DNA of 64,000 bases from an uncultured Gammaproteobacteria bacterium (GTDB taxonomy: Bacteria; Patescibacteriota; Patescibacteriia; Magasanikbacterales; UBA922), in assembly GCA_964519725.1 (NCBI GenBank), contig CAZFKS010000005.1:6024-70023 (forward strand), given 5' to 3'. The notes under the pieces are model-generated. The model had not been told where the DNA came from and made no database searches. It was given only the letters and a program-made list of their open reading frames with translations. Shown piece after piece: positions 6,656 to 57,317 of the stretch (within the stretch, counting starts at the first letter, position 1; each line of letters begins with the position of its first letter). The position numbers were made by a program, and so were the translations under genes.

Positions 6656-6958
6656 ATGACGCAGATTACGGCGTTCGAGATTATCCCTAACGGCAGGTGG
6701 TCACCGACCCTGATTGACATCCGGGCAGCCCAAAAGGCAAAAGGGCGGATTACCTTCCTGACTCGGATCTACGGAGGTCCAGAGCCAGTCCGCATCCCCT
6801 GTACCATCATCGAGGTTTCCTGCCCTGACCTGGCGGATGTGCCCGAAGAGTTCGTGTGCTGCACAGTCCAGGCCAAGGTGGATGGAAGTGCCCCAAAGTC
6901 ATTTATCATCACATATAATCCAGCCGACAAAAGGGGGGTCGGCATGGCCACTTCATGA
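6656..6958 (+). CDS. hypothetical 100-aa protein on a high-GC islet
   Basis: ORF with a canonical SD (ctAGGAGGaatcgagatcATG), GC-rich codons unlike its neighbours, followed by the hairpin at 6971-6997. No recognisable domain. Confidence 0.5.
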   Translation: MTQITAFEIIPNGRWSPTLIDIRAAQKAKGRITFLTRIYGGPEPVRIPCTIIEVSCPDLADVPEEFVCCTVQAKVDGSAPKSFIITYNPADKRGVGMATS

Positions 6959-42869: not shown

Positions 42870-43124
42870 TCACCGCCTAGTTCTCGGCGAAGAGGGCGGG
42901 GGCAATTCCACGGCCGGACCCAGAGGATTTACCTCGGAGATCCGGTAGTTGTTGGCCTGCACATAACTCGGAGGCACACTCTTCAGCGCCTCCGCGTGAG
43001 TGGTTAGTCCACTTTTGTGCAAGACCCACTTGCTTTTCGGATCGCTCCTGACCTCCACCTTCCAGGTGGAGGGTTCTGGAATTGGCTGGGCCGGGATAAA
43101 CTTCAAAGGCTTCTTGGTGCTCAC
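42870..43124 (-). CDS. hypothetical 84-aa protein on the high-GC islet abutting tRNA-Leu (GTG start)
   Basis: GC-rich ORF preceded by a strong SD (ccAAGGAGAtcgtcGTG) and followed by a GC-rich imperfect hairpin. No recognised domain. An alternative overlapping 99-aa frame exists but has a poorer start context. Confidence 0.45.
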   Translation of the reverse strand: MSTKKPLKFIPAQPIPEPSTWKVEVRSDPKSKWVLHKSGLTTHAEALKSVPPSYVQANNYRISEVNPLGPAVELPPPSSPRTRR

Positions 43125-43185
43125 GACGATCTCCTTGGACAGACCAAATCTGTCTTAGTTTGTACTTATTTATCATATTTTAAAT

Positions 43186-43225: not shown

Positions 43226-43308
43226 TGCCGCGGGCGGGACTCGAACCCGCACGACCTTGCGATCGGGGGATTTTAAGTCCCCTGTGTATACCATTTCACC
43301 ACCGCGGC
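43226..43308 (-). tRNA. tRNA-Leu (anticodon TAA), type II with a long variable arm, CCA not encoded
   Basis: Minus-strand sequence GCCGCGGTGGTGAAATGGTATACACAGGGGACTTAAAATCCCCCGATCGCAAGGTCGTGCGGGTTCGAGTCCCGCCCGCGGCA. Anticodon loop CTTAAAA, 15-nt variable arm, acceptor GCCGCGG/CCGCGGC. Confidence 0.85.
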
Positions 43309-44624: not shown

Positions 44625-45371
44625 TTACTTTTTCTTAGCAATCCGCGAGACTTCCCAAGTAATTGCAAACAAATTATTGAGCGTGTGGTATAAATCAGCC
44701 GACTCAATAATCATCCCAAAATTTTCTTTTTGTGTGCCAATTAGGCCCACTTTATTGTCGTACAAATACACGGTCATGGGAAAAATTAAATTATTTGGCG
44801 CATAACGAAGCTCACGTTTTTCTGACTCGCTAGCTGGCCAAACTTCAGCCACTTCTTTTTGTTCAGATCGAATTACTTGCAAGGTCAAACCAGTGTTCAC
44901 ACGCTCTTTGACATACCAGGCCATGTATTCTGGACCAGGCACACGATACAAATCTTCCATTGATAAAATGCCGCGCAGAATTTTTGAGCGACAAGTGAGC
45001 GTATCAGCAAACACAGTTTTAATTCCCGAAACACCAGCGTAAAAACGAATATGTGGACGCACGCCCGTAGTGTTAAGAAGCGAAGCTAGTTCTGGTAACA
45101 CCGCTTCCAACTTGCGCTCTTTTTCCTTTAAAATATTTTTTAATTTTTGTGGATCTTCAGCTGTGTAAATCCGGGTTCGACCACGCGTAGTCAAACTAAC
45201 CAGACCCATGGCGTGCAGTTGCGTTAAAATTTCGTGCGTAGTGGTGCGCGGCAGCCCAGCTTGAACTGAAACCTCACGGGCAGTGCCAGTGCCCACTGAT
45301 AATGCGGCCAAATATACCCCACCTTTGGTCTTGTTTAGGCCAAATTCTTCCAAAACCTTTTGAATATTCAT
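44625..45371 (-). CDS. TrmB-family transcriptional regulator
   Basis: N-terminal TrmB wHTH (GLNKTKGGVYLAALSVGTGTAREVSVQAGLPRTTTHEILTQL) plus a TrmB C-terminal domain. Start at MNIQKV. Confidence 0.75.
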   Translation of the reverse strand: MNIQKVLEEFGLNKTKGGVYLAALSVGTGTAREVSVQAGLPRTTTHEILTQLHAMGLVSLTTRGRTRIYTAEDPQKLKNILKEKERKLEAVLPELASLLNTTGVRPHIRFYAGVSGIKTVFADTLTCRSKILRGILSMEDLYRVPGPEYMAWYVKERVNTGLTLQVIRSEQKEVAEVWPASESEKRELRYAPNNLIFPMTVYLYDNKVGLIGTQKENFGMIIESADLYHTLNNLFAITWEVSRIAKKK

Positions 45372-45539
45372 ATTGACGATATTTTCCGACAACAAGTGAT
45401 TGCTGTTTTTTAGCTTATCCTAGCAAAATATCTATACCACAGAATGCAATTTTTGTCAATATGTACTATAATTGTAGACGAACTTTTTGTCCAGTGGTAA
45501 TGTTGGCCGTTGCCGATACTGGCAGCGAGGGAGGGGAGA

Positions 45540-46244
45540 ATGGACCTAAAAGGACAAGTACGGAAAATAGGGCGGCCAATTTGGCGACATGCGGCTTTGC
45601 ACCGGATTTCTCAGGGGGAATTTACCCCTGACGAGATGCGGCGCTTTGTCCTGCAGCGCCATGCTTTAGCCACAGGTTTTGTCGGACTCCTCAAGAGCAT
45701 CATCCGGAATACGGACGACGAGGCTCTCAGAGAGTGTGTCTGGCAAAACCTGGCGGACGAGACCGGTCACGGCGTAGAGCGTGATTCGCATGCCACCTGG
45801 CGTGCGGATTATCTGCGCGGACTTGGGCTTGACCCGCCCTACACAGCACCGCTCTGGAGCGGCACCAGGCACTACAATGAGGTTTTGCGCGAGCTCAGCT
45901 CCGCCAATCCTCTCGTCAGTGCTGGTGCACTTTGGCTCCTGGAGCGGAGCCTTCCACCTGAATTTGCGCGAATCCGGCGCGGACTCGAGCGGGTGTTCCC
46001 AAACACCTTTGTGCTCAGTCTGGCTGATACAGCCGAAGTGCGTGCTCGCAAAGAGCGCACCCGGTTGTATCTCGTGGATCACGAACGGCACGATGCCGCG
46101 TACCACGAGCCTGACTTGCGACGTGTGCTTACCCGTCCCGACTGGGACGGACGTGCGTGCGCGTCAATTCTCTTAGGCGCTGAGCTCGTCGCCGCTGCCA
46201 AAGTGAAGTTCTACGACTCGGTCGCAGACTCGCTTGGCAAGTAA
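45540..46244 (+). CDS. hypothetical high-GC protein (234 aa), possibly heme-oxygenase-like/PqqC-TenA-like helical fold
   Basis: Strong SD (GGGAGGGGagaATG). GC3-rich codons and an all-helical, Arg-rich composition. The NLADETGHG segment is weakly reminiscent of iron-containing redox/PqqC-like proteins. Followed by the GC hairpin at 46251-46270. Confidence 0.55.
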   Translation: MDLKGQVRKIGRPIWRHAALHRISQGEFTPDEMRRFVLQRHALATGFVGLLKSIIRNTDDEALRECVWQNLADETGHGVERDSHATWRADYLRGLGLDPPYTAPLWSGTRHYNEVLRELSSANPLVSAGALWLLERSLPPEFARIRRGLERVFPNTFVLSLADTAEVRARKERTRLYLVDHERHDAAYHEPDLRRVLTRPDWDGRACASILLGAELVAAAKVKFYDSVADSLGK

Positions 46245-46294
46245 ACGCTCCCCCGGTCGCAAGGCCGGGGTCAACTCTTTGCAAAGTGAGAAAT

Positions 46295-46321
46295 AAAAAA
46301 TCCCCGCCAGGGGATTTTTTA
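46295..46321. terminator. bidirectional intrinsic terminator between the convergent high-GC genes
   Basis: aaaaaatcccc-gcca-ggggatttttt. An upstream GC hairpin ccccggtcgcaaggccgggg and the palindrome ctttgcaaag also lie here. Confidence 0.55.
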
Positions 46322-46418
46322 TTTTAAACCAACTTAATATTCATTTAAAAAAAATAAATACTCAGTTAGGTTGCGCGGCCGATCCTTTTCGGACCAGTCA
46401 CCGCGCTTCCCTCCTGCG

Positions 46419-46994
46419 CTAGTCTTTGGTGATGGGGTCTGGGTCCCCTTCAGCCATTCCGTAGCGCTTTTGACCGCGATCAGTCTTGTGGTCGATGGTG
46501 CCATGTGACACTTCAACCACTGTGGCGCTGCAGAGCGGTCGCAGAACCAGCTGAACCGGTGAGCGATCGGGCCCAAACGTCTGGGGAACCTCCCCAACGT
46601 TCAGAACCGAGAGCACTGCGCCTTTCCAGTCGGCTGGGTCCGGGCGGTAGTTCTGGTCGAACACCACACCGGCCGGAATCACGAGCCGTTTTTTGGCCGG
46701 ACCAGTCTTGGCCACGACCTCGGCGAACCACCCTGGCGGTGGAACAAAGGTGAGTCCGGTGGCGAACTCGGCCGCTTGTCCGGGAAGGACTGTGAACTCC
46801 TCCACAGGAAACACGTCCCAGCCCGAGTCTGAGGCATGGGATTTGGTGGGAATTCTTCCCCCCATTTCCCGAGCCCTCGGGTGAAGGCTGAATTTGAAGA
46901 CCGCAGGGCCCTTTTCCTCGAGCCGAGAAATTCTCCAGTTGATCCAGCCGAATCCAAACACCACGACCGCTGTAACGACACTTTCAAAGACCAT
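46419..46994 (-). CDS. hypothetical high-GC protein (191 aa) with dUTPase/dCTP-deaminase-like beta-barrel motifs and an N-terminal TM segment
   Basis: SD cGGAGGGAGaaaagccATG at MVFESVV. Segments SDSGWDV, VAKTGPAKK, GVVFDQNYRPD and RSPVQLVL align with dUTPase motifs I, III, IV and V in order. GC3-rich. Confidence 0.5.
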   Translation of the reverse strand: MVFESVVTAVVVFGFGWINWRISRLEEKGPAVFKFSLHPRAREMGGRIPTKSHASDSGWDVFPVEEFTVLPGQAAEFATGLTFVPPPGWFAEVVAKTGPAKKRLVIPAGVVFDQNYRPDPADWKGAVLSVLNVGEVPQTFGPDRSPVQLVLRPLCSATVVEVSHGTIDHKTDRGQKRYGMAEGDPDPITKD

Positions 46995-47085
46995 GGCTTT
47001 TCTCCCTCCGTTTTTGGAGTCCAATTTTACCATAAGGTTATATTTTTTCAATATTACTTAATGTCTCAAAATAAATATTTAAAAA

Positions 47086-47118
47086 ATAAAAAATCCCCCG
47101 ATTCCGGAGGATTTTTTA
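47086..47118. terminator. bidirectional intrinsic terminator
   Basis: aaaaaatcccccg-attc-cggaggatttttt between the dUTPase-like gene and the nrdJ 3' end. Confidence 0.55.
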
Positions 47119-47135
47119 TTAACTATCCCATCTCT

Positions 47136-50100
47136 TTAACTGCATCCTAGTGAATCACCACAGTTCAAACATTTGTAACAAGCACCGTTACGCACTGTAA
47201 TGTGTCCGCAGGTTGGACAAGCTGGAGCATCACCCATCATTTCACCAAGCGCAGCATCCATCGCATCCACGGCGCCAGTGTTTTCACTTGGCAATGGTAA
47301 TTCCATGGTTGCTTCTTCGGCCGTAGTTTCTACAGCTGGAACGGCCACCACTTGTGTGGTTGGTGCTGCCATCATGTCAGTTAAACGGGCTTGCGCACCA
47401 TTATCTGCTACTTGGCGAGTGGCAATTTGTTCAAAGCGATTTTTTTGAATTCCTTTTGGTGGCACCTGCACAAAGTCTGTGCGGCCGAGGTATTCCATAC
47501 CCAAAACGCGGAACACGAAATCAATCACTGAGGTACAAATTTTTACATTTGGATGGTCAGTCATGCCAGCTGGTTCAAAACGGGTAAAGACAAAGTTTTC
47601 AACAAACTTTTCGAGCGGCACACCGTATTGCAAACCAATTGAAACTGAAATTGCAAACATGTTTAACATACTGCGGAAACCAGCGCCTTCTTTGTACATA
47701 TCAATGAAAATTTCCGCCAGTTTTCCGTCTGGATATTCACCAGTGCGTAACCAAATTTGTTGATTACCAATTTTAGCTGACACAGTAATCCCACTGCGTT
47801 TAGCTGGTAAGCGGCGTTTTTCACCGTGCACATACACGTGGTGGTCAGTTACAGTGCCGTCTTTACTGTACATTTCCATGGCGTGTGAATCTGGCGTGTG
47901 ACTACTCATGATCTGACTGACTTTTTGTAGAGCAGTCGAAAGATCAGCCGCCGTAGTTGAAACAGCTGCGCGGAGCGGTTCAACTTTTGTTTCTTCTTTT
48001 TCTTTTTTATCTTCAGCTTTCTTAGAAGACGTAGCGAGCGGCTGTGAAAGTTTTGATCCGTCGCGGTAAAGTGCTACAGCCTTCAAACAAAGTTCCCAAG
48101 ATTCCCAGTACGCTTGTTTTACATCTTCCAAAGTGGCTTCATTTGGCATGTTAATGGTCTTGGAAATCGCCCCGGAGAGGAATGGCTGAGCAGAAGCCAT
48201 CATGCGCAAGTGGCCGCGCCAGTGAATATAACGTTGACCTTTTTTTCCACATTTATTAGCACAGTCAAAAATTGGGTAGTGACTCTCAGCCAAATGTGGC
48301 GCACCTTCAATGGTCATGGCTCCACACACATATTCATTGGCCGCTTCAATTTGATCGGCAGTAAAACCAAGACCAGCGAGCATGTTAAAGTTTGGATCAT
48401 TGTACTCAGTTGGAGTAAAGCCAGCCCGTTTCAAGCAATCCTCGCCCAAGGTCCACATGTTGAACGCAAATTTAATTTCAAAGGCTGAACCAAGCGCTTT
48501 ATTAAGCGCCACTAAATCAGCGTCAGTGAAACCTTTAGCTTTCAAAGTGTCAGCATTGATAAATGGCGCTTTGGTAATGTCCCCAGTGCCTTTCATATAA
48601 TCAACAATGTCACTAATTTGACTGGTCGTATAGCCCAAATTCTTGAGTGCGACTGGCACTGCATCATTAACAATTTTGAAATATCCCCCACCAGCCAATT
48701 TTTTGAATTTTACCAAGGCAAAATCTGGTTCAACCCCAGTGGTAGCACAGTCCATTAAGAGACCAATGGTTCCAGTTGGTGCGAGCAAGGTGGTTTGGGC
48801 ATTGCGGTAACCATATTCTTCACCCCACTCTAAAGCTTCATTCCAGGATTCACGGGCCGCGGCCAACAAATAAGCCGGAGCATACTCAGGATTAATTCCC
48901 ACTGGTTTCACCGTTAATTTTTCGTAATCAGCGTCTGGAGCATTAAAGGCCGCGCGACGGTGGTTGCGAATAACGCGGAGCATGTCTTTTTTATTGAGTT
49001 CGTACTTTGGGAAAGTGCCCAGGAAACGAGCCATTTCCGCGCTAGTGCGGTAACTTTCACCAGTCATGAGCGCAGTAACAGCGCCAGTGAACGCGTAGGC
49101 TTCTTCTGATTCATACGGAATTCCACTCATCATCAAGACTGACCCAATGTTAGCATAACCAAGACCCAAAGTGCGGAACTCATAACTCATTTGCGCAATT
49201 TCTTTACTTGGGAATTGAGCCATGAGCACGGAAACCTCCAAAACTACAGTCCACAAACGAGTGGCATGTTTGAAACCGTCAACATCAAAGGTCAAAGTGG
49301 CTGGGTCGAAAAAGTGCACCAAGTTAAGTGAGGCCAAGTTACAAGCTGTGTTGTCGAGGAACAAATATTCACTGCATGGATTTGAGCCATTAATCCGACC
49401 AGATTGTGGTGAAGTGTGCCATTCATTAATATTGTCATCAAACTGGAGACCAGGATCAGCACAAGCCCAGGCCGCAAACGCAATTTGATCCCAAAGTTCT
49501 TGAGCTTTCAAAGTTTTGCAAGTTGACCCATCAGTGCGCCAAGTCAAATTCCAACTACCATCGTTTTTGAGTGCTTCCATGTATTTGTTTGGAACACGCA
49601 CTGAGTTGTTGGAATTTTGACCAGATACGGTTTGGTACGCTTCACCCTCGTAATCAGATGGATAACCAGCGGCCATGAGCGCGGCCACTTTCTTTTCTTC
49701 TTCTACCTTCCAGTTAATGAAAGTCAAAATATCTGGGTGGTCAAGATTCAAAATCACCATTTTGGCAGCGCGGCGAGTCGTACCACCAGATTTAATGGCG
49801 CCAGCAGCGCGATCACCAATTTTTAACCAACTCATGAGGCCAGAAGATTTACCGCCACCTGACAAAGGTTCGCCACGACCACGAAGATTGGAGAAATTGG
49901 TTCCAGTTCCAGAACCATATTTGAACAAACGTGCTTCACGCACCCAAAGATCCATGATCCCGCCCTCATTTACCAGGTCGTCATTAATTGATTGGATAAA
50001 ACAAGCGTGTGGTTGCGGGTGAGAGTAGGCGTCTTTGGCGCGAGTGAGCACACCAGTGTCTGGGTCAACGTAATAATGTCCCTGTGCTCCGCTGTTAATT

Positions 50101-50633
50101 CCGTAAGCCCAATGCAAGCCAGTGTTAAACCACTGTGGTGAGTTTGGGGCAGCCATTTGGCGGAGTAACATTACCACCATTTCATCGTAAAAAATCTCGG
50201 CATCCTTTGGTGATGCAAAGTAACCATATTTTTCACCCCAATATCGCCAAGTTCCGGCCAGCCGGTGCATTGTCTGCTTTACGCTGGTTTCAGGTCCTAG
50301 CATGGGAGACCCGTCCGCGTTCAGCTTTGGCGTTCCATCAGCGTTAAACTGAGGTACACCGGCTTTTCGGAAATACTTTTGGGCAATAATATCAGTCGCA
50401 ACTTGTGACCAACTCTTTGGGATTTCAATGTCTTTCATTTCAAAGACAACCGTTCCATCTGGTTCACGGATCACTGAGCTGCGTTTTTCGTACTCTATTA
50501 AATCAAATGGGCTGATTCCTTCCTGACTAAATCGGCGCGTAACACGAAGTCCATTGTCATTGTACGCAAAAGTAGTATTGGCTTGTTGCCCGAGTTTGAG
50601 TCCGGCAATAAATTTGGAATCAGTTGGCCCCAT
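47136..50633 (-). CDS. nrdJ: adenosylcobalamin-dependent (class II) ribonucleotide reductase
   Basis: 1165 aa with a class II RNR N-terminus (MGPTDSKFIAGLKLGQQANTTFAYNDNGLRVTRRF...), an active-site region and a C-terminal zinc-ribbon CPTCGH...CYKCLNCG. Confidence 0.93.
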   Translation of the reverse strand: MGPTDSKFIAGLKLGQQANTTFAYNDNGLRVTRRFSQEGISPFDLIEYEKRSSVIREPDGTVVFEMKDIEIPKSWSQVATDIIAQKYFRKAGVPQFNADGTPKLNADGSPMLGPETSVKQTMHRLAGTWRYWGEKYGYFASPKDAEIFYDEMVVMLLRQMAAPNSPQWFNTGLHWAYGINSGAQGHYYVDPDTGVLTRAKDAYSHPQPHACFIQSINDDLVNEGGIMDLWVREARLFKYGSGTGTNFSNLRGRGEPLSGGGKSSGLMSWLKIGDRAAGAIKSGGTTRRAAKMVILNLDHPDILTFINWKVEEEKKVAALMAAGYPSDYEGEAYQTVSGQNSNNSVRVPNKYMEALKNDGSWNLTWRTDGSTCKTLKAQELWDQIAFAAWACADPGLQFDDNINEWHTSPQSGRINGSNPCSEYLFLDNTACNLASLNLVHFFDPATLTFDVDGFKHATRLWTVVLEVSVLMAQFPSKEIAQMSYEFRTLGLGYANIGSVLMMSGIPYESEEAYAFTGAVTALMTGESYRTSAEMARFLGTFPKYELNKKDMLRVIRNHRRAAFNAPDADYEKLTVKPVGINPEYAPAYLLAAARESWNEALEWGEEYGYRNAQTTLLAPTGTIGLLMDCATTGVEPDFALVKFKKLAGGGYFKIVNDAVPVALKNLGYTTSQISDIVDYMKGTGDITKAPFINADTLKAKGFTDADLVALNKALGSAFEIKFAFNMWTLGEDCLKRAGFTPTEYNDPNFNMLAGLGFTADQIEAANEYVCGAMTIEGAPHLAESHYPIFDCANKCGKKGQRYIHWRGHLRMMASAQPFLSGAISKTINMPNEATLEDVKQAYWESWELCLKAVALYRDGSKLSQPLATSSKKAEDKKEKEETKVEPLRAAVSTTAADLSTALQKVSQIMSSHTPDSHAMEMYSKDGTVTDHHVYVHGEKRRLPAKRSGITVSAKIGNQQIWLRTGEYPDGKLAEIFIDMYKEGAGFRSMLNMFAISVSIGLQYGVPLEKFVENFVFTRFEPAGMTDHPNVKICTSVIDFVFRVLGMEYLGRTDFVQVPPKGIQKNRFEQIATRQVADNGAQARLTDMMAAPTTQVVAVPAVETTAEEATMELPLPSENTGAVDAMDAALGEMMGDAPACPTCGHITVRNGACYKCLNCGDSLGCS

Positions 50634-53167: not shown

Positions 53168-53488
53168 ATGATCCCCGGAAGGCACAGTTTTTCCCTGGAA
53201 GAAGGAGCGGAGCTGACGCTCCCAGCCTGGGCAGAGAGAACCATCTTCGCTTCCAAGCATGCGGACCGGTTCCCAGATACGCCGTGCGTGCTGCCCGTGC
53301 GCCAGTACGCTAGTGGGCTCTATGAGCCTGTGGCGCCGCGCCGAAAGGGTGGTACCAAGGAGATCGGACGCCATCTGTTCATCCCCAGCGGCGTAAAGGC
53401 GGGGGAAACCCTGTACATCCTGTGGGTGGACGACCGCTCTGCGGCCGCAGTCCGCAAGAAGGATCTACCCTCTCGCCCCCTCTGCTGA
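53168..53488 (+). CDS. hypothetical high-GC protein (106 aa)
   Basis: GC-rich ORF beginning right after the DUF1294 stop, with an SD (cgaAAGAGGttccaaccATG). Followed by GC-rich inverted repeats and a host-type terminator. No recognised domain. Confidence 0.45.
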   Translation: MIPGRHSFSLEEGAELTLPAWAERTIFASKHADRFPDTPCVLPVRQYASGLYEPVAPRRKGGTKEIGRHLFIPSGVKAGETLYILWVDDRSAAAVRKKDLPSRPLC

Positions 53489-57020: not shown

Positions 57021-57248
57021 TTACTGAAACGCCAGGAGCGCGTTCAGCTCCTGCATGACCTCCTTCTTCTCTCCCTCAGGGAGATTTTCGAGGATTCTCT
57101 GGAGAGCTGGGGTTGCCAGTTCTGTGACACTGAGGTCACTAAGCAGCCCCGCGCGTCCGTCCTTTTGGCACTCCTCTACCTGCTCTCCGCAGGCGATGAA
57201 AATGAACTTGGAAGAGCTTCGAAATTCCCTGAATGATACGATAACCAT
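57021..57248 (-). CDS. hypothetical high-GC small protein (75 aa from MVIVSF)
   Basis: GC-rich segment 56950-57300 with an SD (gacGAGGTGGtATG). Helical, acidic C-terminal half. No recognised domain. Confidence 0.4.
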   Translation of the reverse strand: MVIVSFREFRSSSKFIFIACGEQVEECQKDGRAGLLSDLSVTELATPALQRILENLPEGEKKEVMQELNALLAFQ

Positions 57249-57317
57249 ACCACCTCGTCTGTGCCAGCAGACCGAGCACCCTACCAAATTTATCCTTTTT
57301 TGTCAATACCCAAGGAT

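What the first reader, a model, noticed from the sequence alone, without database searches (positions are those of the whole stretch)
45480..47060. High-GC islets 3 and 4: convergent pair (helical redox-like protein plus TM-anchored dUTPase-like protein) between trmB-like and nrdJ genes
A 1.6-kb block of markedly elevated GC contains two convergent genes, each with a canonical SD (GGGAGGGG, GGAGGGAG). One is a 234-aa Arg-rich all-helical protein with an ADETGHG segment, weakly heme-oxygenase/PqqC-like. The other is a 191-aa protein with an N-terminal hydrophobic helix followed by ordered matches to dUTPase motifs I, III, IV and V. Between them lie stacked hairpins (GC hairpin, CTTTGCAAAG palindrome, host-type terminator). 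A membrane-tethered dUTPase-like protein next to a B12-dependent RNR is unusual. dUTPase-like proteins are also used by mobile elements as regulators, so the fold alone does not establish a housekeeping role.
Basis: partly seen in the sequence, partly recalled or inferred. Interest (0 to 1): 0.65.

Follow-up and report, generated by a model that had tools for sequence, protein, structure and literature searches.

The report
Two persistently GC-rich CPR genes
The block holds two real genes of a Candidatus Magasanikbacteria-like chromosome, a CADD-like dimetal oxidase and a divergent dUTPase, and their high GC is not a fresh import from Actinobacteria but a trait kept in every known relative for reasons not yet explained.

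Summary
Window 45474-47018 has GC 0.57-0.62 against 0.434 for the window, and it holds two convergent genes with strong Shine-Dalgarno (SD) sites and stacked hairpins between them.

- **Gene 1 (45540-46244, +):** a heme-oxygenase-like dimetal oxidase (HDO; PF14518). A confident model matches Chlamydia CADD best, but CADD's sacrificial Tyr27 is Leu here.
- **Gene 2 (46419-46994, -), called dutL here:** a divergent trimeric-type dUTPase from a Patescibacteria-specific clade. The motif III Asp and most of motifs I-V are kept. Its hydrophobic N-terminus occurs only in this genome's copy.
- **"trmB-like" neighbour:** a TrmB-family transcription regulator.

Recent transfer from Actinobacteria is not supported. 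Both families are tiny and were found only in Magasanikbacteria-type contigs. Both are GC-rich in every relative (dutL GC3 0.66-0.96; flanking DNA 0.38-0.54 GC). Synonymous sites are saturated while dN/dS is 0.04-0.5.

The GC-rich unit matches the transcript. All five HDO coding sequences fold far better than synonymous shuffles (z -4 to -7.5). In other genera dutL heads a deoxynucleotide salvage/thymidylate cluster. Here it is a ~0.79 kb insertion flanked by a duplicated terminator. What maintains the GC is unresolved.

The parts
44625..45395 (-). TrmB-family HTH transcription regulator, divergent from the HDO gene
   Evidence: PF01978 E 2.7e-10. It is 84-87% identical and in the same position in L008, L009 and L010; a TrmB gene holds the same position in L024 and L030.
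45396..45539 (.). Divergent promoter region and HDO 5'UTR: conserved ACTATAAT -10 box (about 45465-45472), conserved 5'UTR hairpin GUUGCC..GGCAGC (45508-45527), SD GGGAGGGG
   Evidence: Alignment of four loci: the -10 block and the hairpin arms are conserved while the loop varies. Fold. A promoter-like site for trmB overlaps on the - strand.
45540..46244 (+). [quoted passage not shown] GC 0.59, GC3 0.62. The coding sequence is hyper-structured.
   Evidence: Candidate ligands E74, H84, E135, H181, D185 and H189 are invariant in 8 homologs. Folding z -7.5 against dinucleotide shuffles.
46251..46270 (+). Conserved 3'UTR hairpin, 8-bp GC stem with a GCAA loop, directly after the HDO stop
   Evidence: A matching hairpin follows the HDO in every locus, found by pattern in seven loci and in the window and by alignment in L008. 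One pair changes on both sides and stays paired, G-C to A-U; a neighbouring pair changes U-G to C-G.
46277..46286 (.). CTTTGCAAAG palindrome in a conserved 3'UTR block
   Evidence: Conserved in 4 of 5 HDO loci, lost in L026. Function unknown.
46291..46324 (.). Bidirectional intrinsic terminator, copy 1. It ends both the HDO and the dutL transcripts.
   Evidence: 15-nt arms, 100% complementary. Folds. Near-duplicate of 47084-47120.
46373..46406 (-). GC-rich hairpin in the dutL 3'UTR
   Evidence: Fold. The 40 nt after the stop are GC 0.57-0.72 in all nine dutL-type loci.
46419..46994 (-). dutL: divergent trimeric-type dUTPase of a Patescibacteria clade, 191 aa. Residues 1-30 are a lineage-specific hydrophobic extension. 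GC 0.59, GC3 0.66.
46995..47051 (-). dutL's own SD (GGAGGGAG, 47009-47002) and a promoter-like site (-35 TTGAAA at 47051-47046, -10 TAAAAT at 47029-47024)
   Evidence: Sequence. Consensus scan, 10 of 12 matches.
47084..47120 (.). Terminator copy 2 (the nrdJ terminator). Together with copy 1 it brackets the ~0.79 kb dutL insertion.
   Evidence: Direct repeats 46291-46305/47084-47098 (100%) and 46307-46323/47104-47120 (88%). Relatives have one terminator between HDO and nrdJ.
47136..50633 (-). nrdJ, class II (B12-dependent) ribonucleotide reductase. It is convergent with and next to the HDO gene in all relatives.
   Evidence: 89% identical to the L009 gene. Pfam families Ribonuc_red_2_N, Ribonuc_red_lgC and TSCPD on the L024 ortholog.

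Best explanation
The block is chromosomal DNA of a Candidatus Magasanikbacteria-like (CPR/Patescibacteria) bacterium. It carries two independent transcription units.

**Unit 1.** A TrmB-family regulator is transcribed divergently from a lineage-restricted heme-oxygenase-like dimetal oxidase (HDO). The HDO has the seven-helix fold and a candidate three-His/three-carboxylate metal site like CADD. It lacks CADD's sacrificial Tyr, so it most likely activates O2 on a free small-molecule substrate that is still unknown. It always lies tail-to-tail with nrdJ.

**Unit 2.** dutL is a derived member of a Patescibacteria-specific clade of homotrimer-type dUTPases. It most likely hydrolyses dUTP, or a close pyrimidine dNTP, to the monophosphate. 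In other Magasanikbacteria it is the first gene of a conserved cluster: Ndt-TrmB, then divergently dutL, then a YfbR-like HD 5'-deoxynucleotidase. That cluster continues into dCMP deaminase, ThyA, DHFR and Tmk. In this genome a ~0.79 kb dutL unit, with its own promoter and 3' hairpin, was inserted at the HDO/nrdJ terminator. The insertion duplicated the terminator, and the gene gained a new hydrophobic N-terminus.

**The high GC.** It is not a scar of recent transfer. It is an inherited, maintained property of both gene families. It covers the transcript (5'UTR/SD, coding sequence and 3' hairpin) and stops at the AT-rich promoter and terminator. In the HDO it comes with a large excess of base pairing.

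**Shown.** Gene identities, synteny, the insertion, persistence of the GC through saturated synonymous divergence, purifying selection, and the excess folding.

**Inferred.** Enzyme substrates, and that selection acting on the transcript (stability or structure) is what holds the composition.
For: **Identity.**
- PF14518 scores E 6e-13. The HDO model has pLDDT 89.7. CADD is the top fold match, TM 0.70-0.80.
- A profile of the HDO family hits CADD at E 8e-4. HDO E74, H84 and E135 fall on an acidic, a His and an acidic residue of CADD, and CADD Tyr27 aligns with Leu20. Tyr27 as CADD's substrate: PMC9522330.
- dutL matches PDB dUTPases at E 2e-8. Motif residues are conserved.
- Its nearest outgroup cluster contains a protein named 'dUTP diphosphatase [Patescibacteria group bacterium]'.

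**Organism.** The genome hits for dutL are Magasanikbacteria MAGs.

**Context.**
- Ndt-TrmB | dutL-HD in L001, L011 and L013, and in L027 with the related P0018-type dUTPase; dutL with the HD gene three genes downstream in L028.
- dCMP deaminase, a P-loop kinase, ThyA, DHFR and Tmk follow in L013 and L028. GyrB, ribosomal protein L1 and GatB are nearby.
- HDO-nrdJ adjacency in L009, L024, L025 and L026.

**Insertion.** A duplicated terminator flanks dutL, against a single terminator in relatives.

**GC persistence.**
- dutL GC is 0.59-0.72 and GC3 0.66-0.96 in eight genomes, with flanking DNA at 0.38-0.54.
- HDO GC is 0.51-0.59 against 0.42-0.44 overall.
- dS is about 1 or higher in 18 of 21 dutL pairs, the lowest being 0.67, with dN/dS 0.04-0.47. 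dS is also saturated for the HDO and its flanks.

**Rarity.** Five and eight sequences in 5.8e9 proteins. Two clusters below E 1e-30 among 1.84e9 representatives.

**Transcript-shaped unit.** GC is 0.57-0.72 in the 40 nt after the stop in all 14 loci, and low further out in most of them.

**Folding.**
- HDO z is -7.5 against dinucleotide shuffles.
- HDO z is -4.1 to -7.5 against synonymous shuffles in 5 of 5 homologs.
- It is still -4 to -6 when codons are shuffled only within 25-codon blocks.
- In the scan of 35 window ORFs, 32 lie between -2.4 and +1.4; the three outliers are the HDO, dutL and the 42877-43176 islet ORF.
Against: - No biochemical or expression data exist.
- The dutL structure prediction failed (pLDDT 36), so the trimer fold is not confirmed.
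- dutL scores below the curated cutoffs of PF00692 and TIGR00576.
- The motif IV basic residue is shifted by one position, and motif II reads K-T-G.
- L028 also has a canonical dUTPase in the same cluster. dutL may therefore have a different specificity or role.
- The excess folding is not general for dutL. z ranges from -0.1 to -6.2, with L011, L013, L023 and L001 near background. Structure alone cannot explain dutL's GC.
- The excess is about the same on both strands, so RNA-level and DNA-level causes are not separated.
- The consensus fold of five HDO sequences has no net covariation support (covariation term +11.9).
- The C-terminal three metal ligands are placed by motif only.
- The window's own genome was not identified by name.
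Confidence: 0.6

Rival explanations
1. Foreign origin. Both genes came from unsampled high-GC donors (a host, plasmid or phage pool). Either the transfer was ancient, or alleles are replaced in place again and again. That would keep the composition foreign and make the genes look fast-evolving.
For: - GC1, GC2 and GC3 are all raised, as in genes from high-GC genomes.
- The HDO and the 84-aa islet ORF are far more diverged (57-68% aa identity) than their flanks (84-89%).
- Islet content between TrmB and HD varies between genera, and most islet genes are orphans.
- dutL has clearly moved once.
Against: - No donor was found in 5.8e9 proteins, 1.84e9 representatives, viral contigs or phage records. 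The nearest outsiders are about 30% identical.
- The same locus and orientation recur across genera.
- dS is saturated between nearly all copies, so no recent shared import exists.
- An old import should have ameliorated, yet GC3 reaches 0.96.
Confidence: 0.15
2. A local mutational or repair bias drives GC upward at these loci regardless of function. GC-biased gene conversion at recombination hotspots is the main candidate.
For: - All three codon positions and the adjacent UTRs are GC-enriched.
- The islets are more diverged than their flanks, which fits frequent recombination.
Against: - The boundaries follow the transcript sharply and the neighbouring genes of the same cluster are unaffected. 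In L028 dutL GC3 is 0.81 while the canonical dUTPase has 0.13 and the HD gene 0.27.
- The trait moved with dutL to a new locus in the window.
- A shift from about 0.3 to 0.8-0.96 is far beyond the effects I recall being reported for gene conversion in bacteria (my own knowledge, not checked here).
Confidence: 0.1
3. Codon-based translational control. The genes are written in codons that are rare for the genome, so their translation depends on particular tRNAs or tRNA modifications. This would resemble codon-biased stress translation of RNR genes in yeast.
For: - GC3 is 0.66-0.96 where housekeeping genes, including ribosomal protein L1, have 0.25-0.5.
- The genes sit among nucleotide-pool genes under TrmB-type regulators.
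Against: - GC1, GC2 and the untranslated ends are also enriched. Codon choice alone does not explain that.
- No tRNA or modification data are available.
- The yeast parallel is recalled from memory, not tested.
Confidence: 0.1
4. dutL is not the housekeeping dUTPase. It is either a paralog with another specificity (for example dCTP, dTTP or a modified dNTP) or a signalling protein that acts on the neighbouring TrmB-type repressor, as phage dUTPases do with the SaPI repressor Stl.
For: - L028 has both dutL and a canonical dUTPase in one cluster.
- Motifs II, IV and V are altered and a 6-residue insert follows motif III.
- dutL is divergently paired with a TrmB-family regulator in L001, L011 and L013, as is the related P0018-type dUTPase in L027.
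- A 5-hmdU DNA kinase follows dutL-HD in L011.
Against: - The catalytic Asp, the motif IV Gln and the motif V Arg-Gly are invariant.
- No second dUTPase gene lies in the ThyA cluster of L013 (the gap there is too short), none was noticed in the L001 or L011 stretches, and the window has none.
- The related Patescibacteria clade is annotated as dUTPase.
Confidence: 0.15

Closest known systems
CADD / CT610 (Chlamydia trachomatis self-sacrificing p-aminobenzoate synthase) and the HDO superfamily (UndA, BesC, HrmI, SznF)
   Same: - Seven-helix heme-oxygenase-like fold, TM 0.70-0.80 to 8va9, 8vag and 1rcw.
- PF14518 membership.
- Acidic, His and acidic residues aligned to the N-terminal half of CADD's site, plus an invariant H-x3-D-x3-H on the last core helix.
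   Different: - 18-19% identity only.
- CADD Tyr27 aligns with Leu20 and Lys152 with Arg146.
- No folate genes nearby. The constant neighbours are a TrmB regulator and nrdJ.
- The last ligand spacing is H-x3-D-x3-H, not CADD's H-x3-D-x2-H (CADD numbering recalled from memory).
- The family has only 8 known sequence clusters.
Homotrimeric dUTPases (Dut; PF00692/TIGR00576), especially the Patescibacteria clade represented by HLD61199.1
   Same: - Ordered motifs I-V with the motif III Asp, Tyr-Arg, the motif IV Gln and the motif V Arg-Gly..aromatic-Gly.
- The YRP(D/E)xxD insert after motif III is shared with P0018 and P0019.
- Same locus type, Ndt-TrmB ... dUTPase ... HD.
   Different: - Scores are below the curated cutoffs.
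- Motif II is K-T-G.
- The motif IV basic residue is shifted by one position.
- Motif V ends YGMA(D/E)G, not FGSTG.
- dutL coexists with a canonical dUTPase in L028.
- GC3 is extreme.
Horizontally acquired genomic islands recognised by deviant GC
   Same: - Sharp GC step, deviant codon usage, orphan or fast-evolving content, and variable content at one locus.
- One clear insertion, with a duplicated target.
   Different: - The deviation is conserved in all relatives through saturated dS.
- No donor and no integrase or transposase was seen next to the block.
- The unit is a single transcript.
Phage dUTPases that derepress SaPI islands by binding the Stl repressor (moonlighting Dut)
   Same: A dUTPase-fold protein encoded next to a repressor-type gene, and an atypical sequence insert after motif III.
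   Different: - No phage or island context: GyrB, L1, GatB and HisRS are nearby.
- No homology to Stl was tested.
- Phage dUTPases are at most 30% identical.
- The resemblance is by recall only.

Membership tests
[quoted passage not shown] | Sequence match above the curated Pfam threshold | tested here: met
   49.4 bits against a cutoff of 28.9, E 6.3e-13. All eight homologs carry PF14518.
[quoted passage not shown] | Seven-helix heme-oxygenase-type bundle | tested here: met
   AlphaFold model with pLDDT 89.7, all-helical. Foldseek probability 1.00 to CADD, HrmI, BesC, UndA and PqqC. The fold definition is from PMC13108848.
[quoted passage not shown] | Three-His/three-carboxylate metal ligand set on the core helices | tested here: inconclusive
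   E74, H84 and E135 align with an acidic, a His and an acidic residue of CADD. H181, D185 and H189 are invariant on the last long helix, but they were placed by motif, not by superposition.
CADD-type self-sacrificing pABA synthase | Sacrificial tyrosine (CtCADD Tyr27) and neighbouring Lys152 | tested here: not met
   The aligned residues are Leu20 and Arg146, both invariant in the family. The roles of Tyr27 and Lys152 are from PMC9522330.
CADD-type self-sacrificing pABA synthase | Location in a folate biosynthesis gene cluster | tested here: not met
   The neighbours are TrmB, uppS, PduO-type adenosyltransferase and nrdJ in all six loci.
Homotrimeric dUTPase (PF00692 / TIGR00576) | Score above the curated family cutoff | tested here: not met
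   PF00692 scores 15.4 bits against 22. TIGR00576 scores 39.3 against 102.55. The homology itself is significant: PDB dUTPases at E 2e-8 and PHROG dUTPase at 1e-6.
Homotrimeric dUTPase (PF00692 / TIGR00576) | Motif III catalytic Asp with Tyr-Arg | tested here: met
   D113, Y116 and R117 are invariant in the family, and D113 and R117 across all nine aligned sequences. D113 aligns with the catalytic Asp of 3so2 and 1dut.
Homotrimeric dUTPase (PF00692 / TIGR00576) | Motifs I, II, IV and V (phosphate- and uracil-binding residues) | tested here: inconclusive
   - Motif I DSGWDV is kept.
- Motif II reads K-T-G, where canonical enzymes have R/K-S-G.
- The motif IV Gln is kept, but the basic residue lies one position earlier.
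- Motif V RGxKRYG is kept, without the Ser/Thr-Gly tail.
Homotrimeric dUTPase (PF00692 / TIGR00576) | Jelly-roll fold assembling into a trimer with shared active sites | not testable with these tools
   The prediction failed (pLDDT 36 with a 5-sequence alignment). No multimer prediction was available.
   Only the window copy, and its identical Logan contig, has it. Six homologs start 2-13 residues before the FxFSIHP block. P0003 and P0015 have other, non-hydrophobic extensions.
Recently acquired genomic island (HGT from high-GC Actinobacteria) | Closest relatives in the proposed donor group | tested here: not met
   All close relatives lie in Magasanikbacteria-type contigs. The next ones are Patescibacteria dUTPases. 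The HDO has no relatives beyond its 8 clusters.
Recently acquired genomic island (HGT from high-GC Actinobacteria) | Deviant composition absent from, or decaying in, related genomes | tested here: not met
   The composition is equally or more deviant in every relative, with dS saturated.

The most novel reading that the evidence does not exclude
These are compositional islands without transfer. A set of lineage-specific Magasanikbacteria genes would be held for very long times at GC3 0.5-0.96, inside 36-49% GC genomes, by a force that acts on the transcription unit itself. That set includes a dUTPase paralog of the thymidylate cluster and an nrdJ-linked dimetal oxidase. The most likely force is selection for GC-rich, heavily base-paired and therefore long-lived or specially regulated mRNAs with conserved 5' and 3' hairpins. 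A further possibility is a U/T-poor design that keeps nucleotide-pool enzymes expressible when pyrimidine pools fail. If so, deviant GC in CPR genomes is not a reliable HGT signal, and transcript composition is a selected regulatory trait.
Probability: 0.3. Interest if true: 0.75.

Novelty: new variant of a known kind. Interest (0 to 1): 0.5.

Why it matters
1. It corrects a tempting misreading. A sharp GC island holding 'actinobacterial-looking' genes in a CPR genome is not evidence of recent transfer here. Compositional HGT detectors would mislabel these loci.
2. It defines two small, uncharacterised enzyme families. One is an nrdJ-linked HDO that cannot work like CADD. The other is a derived dUTPase clade that heads the deoxynucleotide salvage/thymidylate cluster of Magasanikbacteria and can coexist with a canonical dUTPase. 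Both bear on how ultra-small, salvage-dependent bacteria manage dNTP pools.
3. GC3 up to 0.96 persists through saturated synonymous divergence, and the HDO coding sequence is consistently hyper-structured. That is an unexplained evolutionary signal, and it can be tested with metatranscriptomes, structure probing and population data.

Tried and rejected
- **Dual coding or antisense gene as the cause of high GC3.** No alternative frame is open beyond synonymous-shuffle expectation consistently across homologs. Rejected.
- **Known RNA family in the block.** Nothing reached a gathering score. Only terminator-like weak hits appeared.
- **Phage or viral origin.** No HDO relatives in IMG/VR or INPHARED. 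dutL has only 27-30% matches to ordinary phage dUTPases.
- **Defence system.** No PADLOC hit for either protein.
- **Repeated REP-like element.** The HDO 3' hairpin motif occurs once per locus, and only after the HDO.
- **Conserved global mRNA structure of the HDO.** RNAalifold gave no net covariation. Only local hairpins are conserved, for example alignment columns 243-272 and the 3' end. Suppression of synonymous change is weak: 17 of 102 sites are invariant, and the best window has p 0.005 before correction.
- **Metagenome scan for the HDO.** It found nothing.
- **dutL structure prediction.** It failed.
- **First RNA-folding script.** It timed out and was rerun with fewer shuffles.
- **Literature searches on GC islands in Patescibacteria/Magasanikbacteria.** They found nothing relevant.
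Full report
**1. Observation**

The block is real. GC in 300-nt windows rises from about 0.43 to 0.58-0.62 between 45550 and 46900, with a dip at the intergenic terminator. The window mean is 0.434 and the sd of 200-nt windows is 0.051. 45474-47018 is the longest of six segments above 0.54.

Two convergent ORFs fill the block: 45540-46244 (+, 234 aa) and 46419-46994 (-, 191 aa). Each has a strong SD site. GC3 is 0.62 and 0.66 against 0.40-0.41 in trmB, uppS and nrdJ. GC1 and GC2 are also raised.

The hairpins between the genes are confirmed:
- a GC hairpin with a GCAA loop at 46251-46270;
- the CTTTGCAAAG palindrome at 46277-46286;
- a bidirectional terminator at 46291-46324;
- a GC hairpin after the dutL stop at 46373-46406.

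The gene called 'trmB-like' is a TrmB-family HTH transcription regulator (PF01978). The other neighbours are a PduO-type cobalamin adenosyltransferase, uppS and nrdJ.

**2. Gene 1 is an HDO**

- PF14518 scores E 6e-13, above its cutoff. There are weak hits to the CADD and BesC models.
- A model built from the eight known homologs is confident (pLDDT 89.7) and all-helical.
- Foldseek against the PDB ranks Chlamydia CADD first (TM 0.70-0.80), followed by HrmI, BesC, UndA, PqqC and TenA.
- A profile of the family hits CADD at E 8e-4.
- E74, H84 and E135 align with an acidic, a His and an acidic residue in CADD's N-terminal half. D180/H181/E182, H184/D185 and H189/E190 are invariant on the last long helix. 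This fits the three-His/three-carboxylate set that defines most HDOs (PMC13108848). I could not measure distances in the model.
- CADD's substrate tyrosine, Tyr27 (PMC9522330), aligns with an invariant Leu, and Lys152 aligns with Arg. No folate genes are nearby.

So this is an HDO but not a CADD-type pABA synthase. Its substrate is unknown.

**3. Gene 2 (dutL) is a divergent dUTPase**

It is below the curated cutoffs of PF00692 and TIGR00576. It is nonetheless significantly similar to solved dUTPases (E 2e-8 over residues 48-180) and to the PHROG dUTPase family.

In alignments:
- motif I (DSGWDV), the motif III Asp-x-x-Tyr-Arg, the motif IV Gln and the motif V Arg-Gly...Tyr-Gly are conserved;
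- motif II reads K-T-G;
- the motif IV basic residue sits one position early;
- a six-residue insert (PDPxDxxG) follows motif III.

An exhaustive profile search of 1.84e9 representatives found only two clusters below E 1e-30. After those come ordinary dUTPases from 85 bits downward. The nearest outgroup (P0018, P0019) shares the YRP(D/E) insert, and its cluster includes a protein that NCBI names 'dUTP diphosphatase [Patescibacteria group bacterium]'.

The hydrophobic N-terminus has a Kyte-Doolittle mean of 1.66 and a predicted helix at residues 5-24. It exists only in the window's copy. The dutL structure prediction failed.

**4. Organism and context**

The genome hits for dutL are Candidatus Magasanikbacteria MAGs.

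- In three genera (L001/L012, L011, L013) the arrangement is Ndt, then TrmB, then divergently dutL, then a YfbR-like HD phosphohydrolase. The same arrangement holds in L027, where the P0018-type dUTPase takes dutL's place. In L028 dutL lies at the contig edge with the HD gene three genes downstream.
- In L013 and L028 the cluster continues with dCMP deaminase, a P-loop kinase, ThyA, DHFR and Tmk. GyrB, ribosomal protein L1 and GatB are nearby. L001 adds a MazG-like gene. L028 adds thymidine kinase and also a canonical dUTPase.
- This places dutL in chromosomal pyrimidine deoxynucleotide metabolism. It also leaves open that dutL is a specialised paralog.
- The HDO is found only in close relatives of the window's organism. 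Where the upstream DNA is present it lies next to the orthologous TrmB regulator, except in L025. It is always tail-to-tail with nrdJ.
- Relatives carry the HDO without dutL, or dutL without the HDO. The two are not a functional pair.

**5. dutL was inserted here**

In relatives, one terminator separates the HDO and nrdJ. In the window, two near-identical copies of that terminator (46291-46323 and 47084-47120) flank a ~0.79 kb unit. The unit consists of dutL, its promoter-like site and SD, and its 3' hairpin. The new N-terminal 30 codons are less GC-rich, about 0.51 over the first 90 nt. They look like an addition made at the new site.

**6. The GC is not a transfer scar**

- dutL is GC 0.59-0.72 with GC3 0.66-0.96 in eight genomes, with flanking DNA at 0.38-0.54 GC. 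In L028 it has GC3 0.81 while a canonical dUTPase in the same cluster has GC3 0.13.
- The HDO is GC 0.51-0.59 in all six loci, against 0.42-0.44 overall.
- Synonymous divergence between dutL copies is about 1 or higher in 18 of 21 pairs, and 0.67 at the lowest. dN/dS is 0.04-0.47.
- For the HDO and its flanks dS is also saturated. HDO dN is about three times that of its flanks.
- The proteins are therefore under purifying selection, and synonymous sites have turned over while staying G/C.
- No donor lineage appears in any database searched.

**7. What the GC tracks**

- The enrichment begins around the SD/5'UTR. It covers the coding sequence and the first 40-80 nt after the stop, where there is always a GC hairpin. 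It ends at the AT-rich promoter and terminator in all 14 loci examined.
- The HDO 5'UTR hairpin (arms conserved, loop variable) and the GCAA-loop 3' hairpin are conserved. In the 3' hairpin one pair changes on both sides (G-C to A-U) and a neighbouring pair changes U-G to C-G.
- The HDO coding sequence folds far better than controls: z -7.5 against dinucleotide shuffles, and -4.1 to -7.5 against synonymous-codon shuffles in all five homologs. It is still -4 to -6 when codons are shuffled only within 25-codon blocks.
- In the scan of 35 window ORFs, 32 lie between -2.4 and +1.4. The three outliers are the HDO (-6.6), dutL (-4.4) and the 42877-43176 islet ORF (-4.0).
- For dutL the excess varies, from -0.1 to -6.2.
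- The excess is similar on both strands. The consensus fold shows no net covariation.
- Dual coding is not supported.

I therefore favour selection acting on the transcript, for stability or structure. This is an inference, and it does not fully account for dutL. Import from unsampled donors, biased gene conversion and codon-based translational control remain possible.

**8. Verdict**

The protein assignments are largely right. The membrane anchor is a local peculiarity. The HGT reading is not supported.

Both proteins are new, narrow variants of known superfamilies. The surprising element is the long-term maintenance of extreme GC, and for the HDO of hyper-structure, in single transcription units of low-GC CPR genomes.

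Noticed in passing
L011:11274-12191 (+): A 305-aa protein matches the 5-hmdU DNA kinase helical domain (PF18723, E 1.6e-54). It lies directly after dutL-HD in Magasanikbacteria RIFOXYD2_FULL_41_14, in chromosomal surroundings (HisRS, Fur, ZIP transporter). This is an enzyme of phage thymidine hypermodification in a CPR genome.
   Followed up: no
L027:4546-8946: A 4.4 kb GC-rich block: seven of its eight genes are GC 0.56-0.60 (one is 0.49), against 0.43-0.48 for the adjacent Ndt, TrmB and HD genes. It lies between TrmB and the HD gene and holds seven orphan ORFs plus the P0018-type dUTPase. A faint Y1-transposase-like gene follows the HD gene.
   Followed up: partly
window 6656-6958 (+), 42870-43124 (-), 53168-53488 (+), 57021-57287 (-): Four more single-gene GC islets (GC 0.54-0.63), all small ORFs with no significant Pfam hit. 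The 84-aa one is syntenic and GC-rich in L008, with an ORF in the same position in L024. It is only 57% identical where its flanks are 74-88%, and the 99-aa ORF overlapping it (42877-43176) has excess folding (z -4.0).
   Followed up: partly
L028:72-611 and L028:4969-5394: One cluster holds both dutL (GC3 0.81) and a canonical 141-aa dUTPase (GC3 0.13) in a genome region of about 38% GC. This is the starkest contrast seen.
   Followed up: partly
L013:11479-12428 and L013:12410-13453: Two GC-rich orphan ORFs (141 and 178 aa, GC 0.59-0.66) lie between the HD gene and a dCMP deaminase. The deaminase carries an unmatched N-terminal extension of about 190 aa.
   Followed up: no
window 45782-45811: A 13-bp hairpin inside the HDO coding sequence (TGATTCGCATGCC ACCT GGCGTGCGGATTA, encoding DSHATWRA). 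It is kept in all five homologs apart from one broken pair in one sequence, and the synonymous sites are nearly unchanged even though dS is saturated elsewhere.
   Followed up: partly
window 43249-43268 (-): A segment of tRNA-Leu(UAA) resembles the HDO 3' hairpin motif (CCCCGATCGCAAGGTCGTGC, 2 mismatches). This is probably coincidence.
   Followed up: no
L024:7086-9065: Relative to the window, this close relative has two extra genes between uppS and trmB: a GC-rich 250-aa orphan (GC 0.53) and a second, AT-rich 387-aa TrmB-family protein (GC 0.36).
   Followed up: no
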